From Escherichia coli (lineage in GTDB: Bacteria > Pseudomonadota > Gammaproteobacteria > Enterobacterales > Enterobacteriaceae): a DNA stretch of 64,000 bases. Location of the stretch: assembly GCF_030013595.1 (NCBI RefSeq), contig NZ_CP122768.1, one strand, 5' to 3'. Of this stretch, positions 16,926-17,663 are shown in pieces. Both the position numbers and the translations under genes were made by a program. The notes under the pieces are model-generated. The model had not been told where the DNA came from. It saw only the letters and a list, made by a program, of their open reading frames with translations, and ran no database searches. The stretch's first letter is position 1, and each line of letters starts with the position of its first letter.

Positions 16926-17663
16926 CTAGCTGTAAAAGCTCTGCGCCAGCGAACCGACCAGCAATTGCCAGCCATCCACCAGTACAAACAGCATCAGTTT
17001 AAAGGGCAGAGCAATGGTGGCTGGGGGAACCATCATCATCCCCAATGCCATCAACACGCTGGCAATCACCAGGTCGATAATCAAAAAAGGAATGAAAATC
17101 GTGAAGCCTATCTGAAATGCGGTTTTCAACTCGCTGGTCACGTAGGCCGGGAGCAAAATGCGCATCGGCACGGCTTCAGGTCCCTGCAACGGGCCAGTAT
17201 TTGCCAGTCTGGCAAACAACCCTAAATCCGCCTCACGGGTCTGACGCAGCATAAACTCACGCAGCGGCTGCGCCCCTTTTTCCAGCGCCTCCTGCATTGA
17301 TATTTTCTCTTCGCTGAATGGCTGGTACGCATCGACATAAATTTTATCGATCACCGGCGACATAATAAAAAAGGTCAAAAACAGCGCCAGCCCCAGCAAT
17401 ACCTAGTTAGGTGGTGCGGAGGGCGTTCCCAGCGCGTTACGCAATAAACCAAAAACAATGATGATGCGAGTGAAACTGGTCATCATCAGTAAAATTGCCG
17501 GAATAAACGTCAACGAGGTGATGAACACCAGCGTCTGCACCGGGAGCGACCAGCTTTGTCCACCGCCAGGCAGCGGCTGGCTGGTGATACCCGGCAGTTG
17601 CGCGAAGGCGAGGGGCGTAACCAGCCAGAGAAGGACAGGTGCGACAGACAACAAACGACGCAT
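16926..17663 (-). pseudogene. fliP: flagellar export apparatus protein FliP, interrupted by in-frame TAG
   Basis: ORFs 17403..17663 and 16926..17399 are collinear in one frame, separated only by TAG (plus-strand cta at 17403..17405). Confidence 0.8.

What the first reader, a model, noticed from the sequence alone, without database searches (positions are those of the whole stretch)
17403..17405. In-frame amber codon splits fliP
The two ORF-track pieces of fliP are collinear in one frame with a single TAG between them (AAC TAG GTA; I recall CAG, Gln, here in K-12). FliP is essential for flagellar export, so unless suppressed or a sequencing error this strain should be non-flagellated.
Basis: partly seen in the sequence, partly recalled or inferred. 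Interest (0 to 1): 0.55.

Follow-up and report, generated by a model that had tools for sequence, protein, structure and literature searches.

The report
Inherited amber stop in fliP
The flagellar export-gate gene fliP of this E. coli really is cut by one in-frame TAG, an inherited mutation shared by a whole clone and sitting on a known kind of mutation hotspot, so this is an ordinary natural loss of a motility gene.

Summary
Confirmed. fliP lies on the minus strand (16926..17663). Codon 87 is TAG (17403..17405), and nothing else interrupts the 245-codon frame. K-12 and the nearest relatives have CAG in the identical context.

It is not a sequencing error. The exact 86-aa product is on record on 113 contigs. 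Independent assemblies are 0-1 differences from the window over 6-11 kb and carry the same TAG.

The change is C->T at the inner C of a CCAGG Dcm site, the classic 5-methylcytosine deamination signature. This explains why the stop is amber. dcm and vsr are intact in the window. A second amber, yedK W201* (27893..27895), arose the same way.

The same fliP TAG occurs on at least 10 divergent E. coli backgrounds. CAG->TAG truncations were seen on 10 and >=10 backgrounds at two Dcm sites (fliP Q87, fliM Q253), against 3, 1 and 1 at non-Dcm CAG sites. Trp-codon stops recur even without Dcm, so flagellar nonsense alleles are common in general.

All 19 other flagellar genes checked are intact, so the loss looks recent. 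The predicted result, not tested here, is no FliPQR gate and a non-flagellated clone, unless the genome holds a suppressor outside the window.

Known mechanisms and a known kind of outcome: low interest.

The parts
16926..17663 (-). fliP, interrupted (pseudogene): 245 codons with TAG at codon 87
   Evidence: Translation. With Gln restored at codon 87 the protein scores 314.4 bits against the 217.45 cutoff of TIGR01103 fliP and E=4.7e-138 over residues 1-245 to Salmonella FliP 6F2D.
17403..17405 (-). The amber codon (TAG; CTA on the + strand), derived from CAG (Gln87)
   Evidence: The window is the derived state when polarised with outgroup strain C4.
17402..17406 (.). Former Dcm site CCAGG (minus strand), now CTAGG. 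The mutated base is + strand 17405 (G->A), which is the inner C on the minus strand.
   Evidence: Context analysis. This is the only one of the three CCWGG sites in fliP where inner-C deamination creates a stop.
17406..17663 (-). N-terminal remnant, 86 aa: signal peptide plus 65 mature residues. It covers profile positions 1-40 of 197 of TIGR01103.
   Evidence: This exact product is on record as P0001 / STE71561.1 on 113 contigs.
16926..17402 (-). Untranslated C-terminal remnant (codons 88-245). The in-frame TTG at codon 89 and ATG at codon 101 are the only conceivable restart points.
   Evidence: It covers profile positions 43-197 of TIGR01103. Gene callers annotate a 145-aa or 157-aa piece here.
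15853..16916 (-). fliQ (16647..16916) and fliR (15853..16638), intact, downstream in the same operon. They may suffer polarity from the premature stop.
   Evidence: ORFs are intact. Polarity is an inference only.
17663..18028 (-). fliO, intact. Its stop overlaps the fliP start.
7215..8633 (+). dcm (DNA cytosine methyltransferase, 472 aa), an intact ORF carrying the clone-specific Q395H change
   Evidence: 947 bits to NF007772 against a cutoff of 710.
8614..9084 (+). vsr (very-short-patch repair endonuclease, 156 aa), intact and identical to the nearest relative
   Evidence: 178.5 bits to TIGR00632. No SNP falls in this range.
27893..27895 (-). Second amber codon, in yedK (27827..28495): W201* (TGG->TAG), caused by C->T at the inner C of a + strand CCAGG
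   Evidence: The truncated product P0031 is found in the window's clone (L057, identical over 3.7 kb, plus 22 similar places) and in one different background (L056).

Best explanation
This is a genuine, vertically inherited nonsense mutation, fliP Q87amber, fixed in a well-sampled E. coli clone. It most likely arose by spontaneous deamination of 5-methylcytosine at the inner C of a Dcm site (CCAGG -> CTAGG) that escaped Vsr repair. This route can only produce TAG, which is why the stop is amber.

Translation ends after residue 86, leaving the signal peptide plus 65 mature residues. That removes about 80% of the conserved FliP core.

The remaining steps are inferred. Without FliP the FliP-FliR nucleus of the flagellar type III export gate cannot form, so no rod, hook or filament is exported. 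FlgM should stay in the cell and keep sigma-28 (and therefore fliC) off, and fliQ and fliR may also suffer polarity. The clone should therefore be non-flagellated and H-negative despite an intact fliC.

All other flagellar genes in the window are intact, so the loss looks recent. It is one instance of a general pattern in which E. coli lineages repeatedly lose flagellar genes by nonsense mutation, with Dcm sites over-represented among the hits.
For: The change is single and derived. It is the only difference from the nearest fliP alleles. In the 1..35237 stretch that could be polarised against outgroup C4, the pig isolate HCP5S3_I2 (27 mismatches over 42.7 kb) differs from the window at 24 SNPs. 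Eight of these are window-derived, including 17405.

It is not an artefact:
- The exact 86-aa product is on 113 contigs and in 178 index blocks.
- L005 (GCA_021646965.1) is 1 SNP from the window over 6.2 kb, and L058 (GCA_053639275.1) is 0 differences over 11.1 kb. Both carry TAG.
- All 25 contigs read that carry the clone-specific FliK A342E allele share the same gene context; the one locus returned from them, L058, carries the TAG.
- Only 2 of 155 ancestral CCWGG sites in the window differ from the relative.

Dcm origin:
- The mutated base is the inner C of CCAGG.
- 2 of the 8 window-derived SNPs hit Dcm inner cytosines, P about 6e-4.
- Only 19 of 270 CAG/TGG->TAG sites in the fli genes (7%) are Dcm sites, yet both ambers in the window are.
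- dcm and vsr are intact.
- Background on Dcm and VSP repair: PMC2715241.

Recurrence: the TAG sits on at least 10 backgrounds that differ by 30-62 SNPs per 3.5 kb, with at least 5 distinct haplotypes within +/-30 nt of the codon.

Controls (distinct backgrounds with a true internal stop, out of at most 10 places shown):
- CAG->TAG at Dcm sites: fliP Q87 10, fliM Q253 10.
- CAG->TAG at non-Dcm sites: fliP Q43 3, fliP Q124 1, fliM Q255 1.
- The non-Dcm CAA codon fliP Q233 gave 1 (a TAA stop).

Function: FliP is essential for export and the export-apparatus assembly nucleates on FliP-FliR (PMC5542435). The other 19 flagellar genes checked in the window (fliE-fliT, fliA, fliC; fliZ was not translated) have intact ORFs.
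Against: - Methylation of this site, and the deamination event itself, cannot be observed from sequence. A plain replication-error C->T would look the same.
- The hotspot enrichment is semi-quantitative. Each look-up read at most 24 contigs and showed at most 10 places, and clonal expansion inflates contig counts.
- A non-Dcm control, fliM W246*, was found on 9 backgrounds. Recurrence alone therefore does not prove a hotspot.
- The allele is rare overall: 0 of about 3,960 complete RefSeq genomes matched by three haplotype-specific 61-mers carry it.
- The phenotype was not measured.
- Only 64 kb of the genome was available, so a suppressor tRNA elsewhere cannot be excluded.
- FliP is needed in only about five copies per basal body, so low-level UAG read-through by tRNA-Gln, which would restore the wild-type residue, could leave some flagellation.
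Confidence: 0.75

Rival explanations
1. Sequencing or assembly artefact. Nanopore basecallers make systematic consensus errors at Dcm-methylated CCAGG/CCTGG motifs, so the TAG could be a miscalled CAG.
For: The change lies exactly in a Dcm motif. Wick et al. 2019 report that about 70% of ONT consensus errors fell in Dcm motifs with the default models (PMC6591954). No complete RefSeq genome carries the allele.
Against: The same TAG is present in many assemblies from different submitters and runs that are 0-1 SNP from the window (L005, L058; 20-24 further similar places). Only 2 of 155 Dcm sites in the window differ from the closest relative, whereas a systematic artefact would affect many. The other window-specific SNPs (FliK A342E, Dcm Q395H, YedE R390L) are likewise shared by about 74 contigs.
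Confidence: 0.02
2. A real mutation, but an ordinary C->T transition from a replication error or deamination of unmethylated cytosine. On this reading the Dcm context is coincidental, and the recurrence reflects selection for, or tolerance of, loss of flagella plus the sheer size of the databases.
For: Non-Dcm nonsense alleles also recur: fliM W246* on 9 backgrounds, fliP Q43* on 3, and TGA alleles at fliM W169 on 3. Transitions are the commonest substitutions in any case.
Against: Both ambers in the window are at Dcm inner cytosines, although only about 7% of CAG/TGG->TAG sites are Dcm sites; the chance of that is about 0.005. For CAG->TAG the two Dcm sites gave 10 and >=10 backgrounds, against 3, 1 and 1 at non-Dcm CAG sites. 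5-methylcytosine hotspots at CCAGG are established in E. coli genetics (references cited in PMC2715241).
Confidence: 0.18
3. The amber is phenotypically suppressed or leaky. A suppressor tRNA elsewhere in the genome, natural UAG read-through (tRNA-Gln would restore Gln87), or re-initiation at the TTG two codons downstream could supply enough FliP for some flagella.
For: Gln is the original residue, so supE-type suppression or near-cognate read-through would regenerate wild-type FliP. Only about five FliP subunits are needed per basal body (established knowledge of the FliP5Q4R1 gate). Two amber codons persist in the same clone. All other flagellar genes are still intact.
Against: No tRNA in the window has a CUA anticodon; glyW, cysT and leuZ are canonical. 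Both stops being amber is fully explained by the CCAGG->CTAGG chemistry and needs no suppressor. A re-initiated fragment would lack the signal peptide and first helix. Intact neighbouring genes are equally expected after a recent loss.
Confidence: 0.07

Closest known systems
5-methylcytosine (Dcm, CCWGG) amber hotspots, as first seen in lacI, and their containment by very-short-patch (Vsr) repair
   Same: C->T at the inner C of CCAGG converts an in-frame CAG to TAG (fliP), or on the other strand TGG to TAG (yedK). dcm and vsr are present. The change recurs at the same site in independent lineages.
   Different: Here it is seen in natural populations and in flagellar genes rather than in a laboratory reporter. 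Methylation and the mutation rate were not measured, and the enrichment over non-Dcm sites is only about 3-10 fold for CAG codons and weaker for Trp codons.
Non-motile (H-negative) natural E. coli and Shigella lineages with inactivated flagellar genes
   Same: An essential flagellar gene carries an inactivating mutation in an otherwise complete fli region with an intact fliC. Many other truncated FliP and FliM products are on record in E. coli and Shigella.
   Different: There is a single point lesion in this 64-kb window instead of the multiple deletions and IS insertions recalled (from general knowledge, not checked here) for Shigella. The flh, flg, che and mot regions of this genome were not available, and the phenotype is untested.
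Laboratory fliP (formerly flaR) null or amber mutants of E. coli and Salmonella
   Same: Loss of FliP, a core export-gate protein that is essential for export of flagellar substrates (PMC5542435, PMC5542437).
   Different: Those are engineered or selected laboratory alleles with measured phenotypes. This is a natural allele whose effect is inferred.

Membership tests
FliP / SctR export-gate protein (TIGR01103, PF00813) | Full-length match to the FliP equivalog model above the curated cutoff | tested here: met
   With Gln restored at codon 87 the protein scores 314.4 bits against a cutoff of 217.45, and E=4.7e-138 over residues 1-245 to Salmonella FliP 6F2D.
FliP / SctR export-gate protein (TIGR01103, PF00813) | Uninterrupted reading frame encoding the whole conserved core | tested here: not met
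   TAG at codon 87. The N-terminal piece covers only profile positions 1-40 of 197 (49 bits, below the cutoff). The locus is a fliP pseudogene, not a functional fliP.
FliP / SctR export-gate protein (TIGR01103, PF00813) | Operon context fliLMNOPQR | tested here: met
   fliL, M, N and O lie upstream and fliQ and fliR downstream. All are intact and syntenic with annotated genomes.
Dcm 5-methylcytosine deamination hotspot mutation | The ancestral sequence is CCWGG and the change is C->T at the inner C (G->A on the other strand) | tested here: met
   AAC CAG GTA -> AAC TAG GTA. The ancestral state is confirmed in HCP5S3_I2, C4 and K-12.
Dcm 5-methylcytosine deamination hotspot mutation | The organism encodes an active Dcm methyltransferase | tested here: inconclusive
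   The dcm ORF is intact (947 bits to NF007772) but carries the clone-specific Q395H change. Activity and methylation of this site cannot be read from sequence.
Dcm 5-methylcytosine deamination hotspot mutation | Independent recurrence at the site in excess of comparable non-methylated sites | tested here: met
   CAG->TAG on 10 (fliP Q87) and >=10 (fliM Q253) backgrounds, against 3, 1 and 1 at non-Dcm CAG sites. The result is capped and semi-quantitative, and one non-Dcm Trp site reached 9.
Programmed or suppressed stop codon (suppressor tRNA, recoding) | A tRNA with anticodon CUA, or a recoding signal, in the genome | tested here: inconclusive
   The window holds only tRNA-Gly(GCC), tRNA-Cys(GCA) and tRNA-Leu(UAA), all normal. 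The rest of the genome is not available.
Programmed or suppressed stop codon (suppressor tRNA, recoding) | The stop codon is conserved among homologues | tested here: not met
   TAG is the derived state and is rare: 0 of about 3,960 complete genomes. K-12, C4 and HCP5S3_I2 all have CAG.
Nanopore Dcm-motif consensus error | Confined to one assembly, with many Dcm motifs affected | tested here: not met
   The allele is present in many independent assemblies of the clone, and only 2 of 155 motifs are changed.

The most novel reading that the evidence does not exclude
fliP Q87, together with sister sites such as fliM Q253 and W169, might act as a mutationally biased and potentially reversible off/on site for flagellation. 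The gene would be switched off by 5-methylcytosine deamination (CCAGG->CTAGG). It could be switched back on at an elevated rate because Vsr repair converts T:G mispairs in CTAGG back to CCAGG; Vsr-stimulated CTAGG->CCAGG mutation is noted in PMC2715241. Dcm/Vsr would then provide a low-frequency contingency switch for an immunogenic and costly organelle. The intact state of every other flagellar gene in the clone would fit a reversible state.
Probability: 0.06. Interest if true: 0.6.

Novelty: new member of a known kind. Interest (0 to 1): 0.27.

Why it matters
For this genome, it predicts that a whole clone (about 75-125 public assemblies) types as non-motile / H-negative by serology although fliC is intact. 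This is useful when reconciling in-silico H-typing with phenotype.

More generally, it is a clean natural example of two textbook processes acting together: Dcm-site deamination producing amber codons, and repeated loss of flagella in E. coli. It also shows that the products predicted from Dcm-site ambers (fliP Q87*, fliM Q253*, W169*) can be found, each on several to ten unrelated backgrounds, in public data.

It does not reveal a new mechanism or system.

Tried and rejected
- Shigella-like origin with multiple flagellar lesions. I first suspected this because no complete E. coli genome matched exactly. I rejected it: the window is collinear with, and 99.9% identical to, an E. coli pig isolate, and all other fli genes are intact.
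- Raw contig counts as a measure of recurrence. These are misleading, because most hits for the control truncations are contigs that simply end inside the gene. I switched to counting true internal stops on distinct backgrounds.
- A 61-mer search with the window's own haplotype. It reached only 108 genomes because of the 28-base word requirement, so I repeated it with two commoner haplotypes. All three searches found no TAG.
- Serotype or lineage name from fliC. The nearest hits carry no serotype in their names, so the H type and the clone name remain undetermined.
- Literature searches for a described fliP Q87 or nonsense allele in non-motile E. coli. Nothing specific was found.
- Recombination as the explanation for the shared TAG. 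I rejected it because carriers differ at sites 10-20 nt on either side of the codon.
- A strict 'Dcm sites only' hotspot model. It is too strong, because the non-Dcm site fliM W246* also recurs on 9 backgrounds.

Full report
**1. The observation**

fliP lies on the minus strand at 16926..17663. Translating that strand gives one 245-codon frame with a single internal stop at codon 87 ('CCA CCT AAC TAG GTA TTG CTG'). The stop occupies + strand 17403..17405. The ORF list shows the two pieces: 17403..17663 (86 aa) and 16926..17399 (157 aa counted from an in-frame TTG).

K-12 MG1655 has CAG in the same nine-codon context. With Gln restored, the protein scores 314 bits against the 217-bit cutoff of the FliP equivalog model TIGR01103. 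It also aligns end to end with Salmonella FliP (6F2D, E=4.7e-138).

**2. Source and polarity of the change**

No complete RefSeq E. coli genome has an identical fliP. The best six are one mismatch away, and that mismatch is the C/T at codon 87.

- Over 24 kb the window is 99.9% identical to two pig isolates, HCP5S3_I2 and LCP30S3_I5.
- Over the first 42.7 kb there are 27 mismatches and two indels.
- Strain C4 (about 98% identical) served as outgroup for window 1..35237. Of the 24 SNPs there, eight are derived on the window's lineage. One of these is 17405 (G->A on the + strand, C->T on the coding strand).
- Six of the eight fall in genes: one is synonymous, three are missense (Dcm Q395H, FliK A342E, YedE R390L) and two are nonsense (fliP Q87*, yedK W201*).
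- All 19 other flagellar genes checked in the window (fliA, C, D, S, T, E-O, Q, R; fliZ was not translated) have intact reading frames.

**3. Not an artefact**

- The exact 86-aa product is in the public protein collection (NCBI STE71561.1 among others) on 113 contigs and in 178 index blocks.
- L005 (GCA_021646965.1) differs from the window by 1 SNP in 6.2 kb. L058 (GCA_053639275.1) has 0 differences in 11.1 kb. Both have TAG.
- All 25 contigs read that carry the clone-specific FliK allele share one gene context; the single locus returned from them, L058, carries the TAG.
- The other window-specific alleles are each on about 74 contigs, the longest of 5.58 Mb.

Nanopore consensus errors do concentrate at Dcm motifs (PMC6591954). 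However, only 2 of the 155 ancestral CCWGG sites in the window differ from the nearest relative, and the allele is shared by assemblies from different submitters. I put the artefact explanation at about 2%.

**4. How the mutation arose**

The ancestral minus-strand sequence AAC CAG GTA contains CCAGG, a Dcm site, and the mutated base is its inner C. Dcm methylates that C. 5-methylcytosine deaminates to T, and the resulting T:G mispair is normally corrected by Vsr (PMC2715241). CCAGG->CTAGG necessarily creates TAG on both strands, which explains why the stop is amber.

- fliP has three CCWGG sites, and only this one gives an in-frame stop.
- dcm (7215..8633) and vsr (8614..9084) lie in the window and are intact.
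- The second amber in the window, yedK W201* (27893..27895; + strand CCAGG->CTAGG, so TGG->TAG on the coding strand), has the same signature.
- Two of eight derived SNPs falling on the 168 Dcm target bases in 35 kb has P about 6e-4.
- Put another way, only 19 of 270 CAG/TGG->TAG sites in the fli genes (7%) are Dcm sites, yet both ambers in the window are.

**5. Recurrence, with controls**

Looking up the truncated product retrieved the same TAG on at least 10 backgrounds (L004-L013, covering both the Val15 and Ile15 alleles). These differ from one another by 30-62 SNPs per 3.5 kb. They carry at least five different haplotypes within +/-30 nt of the codon, so shared ancestry or a recombination tract cannot explain them.

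As controls I looked up the products expected from transition-type nonsense changes at ten non-Dcm Gln/Trp codons of fliP, in both alleles. I inspected the DNA for four of them. Most of those hits are contigs that simply end inside fliP.

I then predicted and tested Dcm sites in fliM. The table counts distinct backgrounds that have a true internal stop, out of at most 10 places shown per look-up.

| Site | Dcm site? | Backgrounds with a true stop |
|---|---|---|
| fliP Q87* (CAG->TAG) | yes | 10 |
| fliM Q253* (CGC CAG GTG) | yes | 10 (the cap) |
| fliM W169* (CCTGG) | yes | 7 TAG + 3 TGA |
| fliP Q43* | no | 3 |
| fliP Q124* | no | 1 |
| fliP Q233* (CAA->TAA) | no | 1 |
| fliP W232* | no | 2 events (TGA, TAG) |
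| fliM Q255* | no | 1 |
| fliM W246* | no | 3 TAG + 6 TGA |

Nonsense alleles of flagellar genes therefore recur widely in E. coli. Dcm sites are enriched roughly 3-10 fold for CAG->TAG and less clearly for Trp codons. The look-ups are capped at 24 contigs read and 10 places shown, so these are lower bounds and not rates.

The fliP allele is rare overall: 0 of about 3,960 complete genomes reached by three haplotype-specific 61-mers carry it. yedK W201* occurs in the window's clone and in one other background.

**6. Consequence (inferred)**

The 86-aa product keeps the signal peptide and 65 mature residues, which cover profile positions 1-40 of 197. FliP is essential for export of flagellar substrates, and assembly of the export apparatus nucleates on a FliP-FliR complex (PMC5542435; PMC5542437).

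From established knowledge of the flagellar hierarchy, a cell without the gate makes no hook-basal body and retains FlgM. Sigma-28-dependent fliC then stays off, and the cell is non-flagellated. Premature termination may also reduce fliQ and fliR expression through polarity. None of this was measured.

The intact state of the rest of the fli region argues that the loss is evolutionarily recent.

**7. Suppression, read-through and re-initiation**

The window's three tRNA genes (Gly-GCC, Cys-GCA, Leu-UAA) are normal, but the rest of the genome is unavailable.

- supE-type suppression, or near-cognate read-through by tRNA-Gln, would restore the wild-type residue. Few FliP copies are needed per flagellum, so some leakiness cannot be excluded.
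- Re-initiation at the TTG two codons downstream would yield a fragment lacking the signal peptide and the first helix, and it is unlikely to function.

I give this rival about 7%.

**8. Comparison with what is known**

Mechanistically this behaves like the classical Dcm 5-methylcytosine amber hotspots. Biologically it resembles the many non-motile E. coli and Shigella lineages with broken flagellar genes. The membership tests are listed separately. In short, the locus is a fliP pseudogene because the intact-frame criterion is not met. The sequence-level criteria for a Dcm-site mutation are met, while methylation itself is not testable here.

I found no paper describing this particular allele, but the truncated proteins are already deposited.

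**9. Verdict**

The finding is real and correctly interpreted. I have extended it with the mutational mechanism, clonal inheritance, homoplasy and a second amber.

It is a new member of a known kind and of low general interest (0.27). The most novel reading not excluded is a Dcm/Vsr-biased reversible off/on site for flagellation (about 6%).

**10. Limits**

- The serotype and clone name are undetermined.
- The sequencing platforms of the supporting assemblies were not checked.
- The counts of independent origins are capped.
- The phenotype, the methylation state and any suppressor are all untested.

Noticed in passing
window 27893..27895 (yedK, 27827..28495, minus strand): A second in-frame amber: yedK (SRAP / abasic-site processing protein) W201*, TGG->TAG. 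It is also window-derived and also at the inner C of a CCAGG site. It removes the last 22 residues. It is found in the window's clone (L057 plus 22 similar places) and in one different background (L056).
   Followed up: yes
L060-L099 (fliM in public assemblies); window fliM 18441..19445: Truncated FliM products predicted from Dcm-site ambers (Q253*, W169*) exist on at least 10 and 7 unrelated E. coli backgrounds. The non-Dcm W246* is on 9, while Q255* is on 1. Nonsense loss of flagellar genes is therefore widespread and partly hotspot-driven.
   Followed up: yes
window 8399 (dcm codon 395) and 7397 (dcm codon 61): The clone carries a derived missense change in Dcm (Q395H) plus a synonymous change, while vsr is unchanged. 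Whether Q395H alters methylation, or the Dcm/Vsr balance and hence the CCWGG mutation rate, is unknown.
   Followed up: no
window 8399, 20122, 28869 (also 11504): Half of the eight window-derived SNPs are transversions, and three of them are G:C->T:A, the type associated with oxidative damage. The number is too small to interpret, but the spectrum is unusual for natural E. coli SNPs.
   Followed up: no
window 46373 and 46375 (glyW tRNA-Gly, 46350..46425), compared with L003: The nearest complete genome, HCP5S3_I2, has two substitutions inside the highly conserved glyW tRNA gene, where the window is canonical. It also has 16 derived SNPs in 35 kb, including several unique protein variants (FliM, FliI, YedL). 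That reference may contain consensus errors or come from a mutator background.
   Followed up: partly
window 4477..4487 (porin gene, 4296..5513, minus strand): There is an 11-bp indel relative to HCP5S3_I2. The ompC-like porin ORF is open in the window but is annotated as frameshifted in the relative.
   Followed up: partly
window ~42710 and 58593..59905: Insertion-sequence content differs from the nearest relative. The relative's ISVsa5 insertion in yecU is absent from the window. An IS3-family element lies inside the prophage at 58.6-59.9 kb, and it is only 95% identical to the relative's copy, which sits at a different place.
   Followed up: partly
window 46783..64000: A prophage is integrated next to the glyW-cysT-leuZ tRNA cluster. 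The integrase ORF is at 46783..47826, and Gp157-like, exonuclease and replicative helicase genes follow by synteny with the relative's annotation. It was not examined further.
   Followed up: no
window 46193 (pgsA last sense codon, 45650..46198): The relative HCP5S3_I2 has TAG where the window has CAG at the final codon of pgsA (181 vs 182 aa). This is a harmless amber polymorphism in a GATC context, not a Dcm context. Its polarity was not determined.
   Followed up: no
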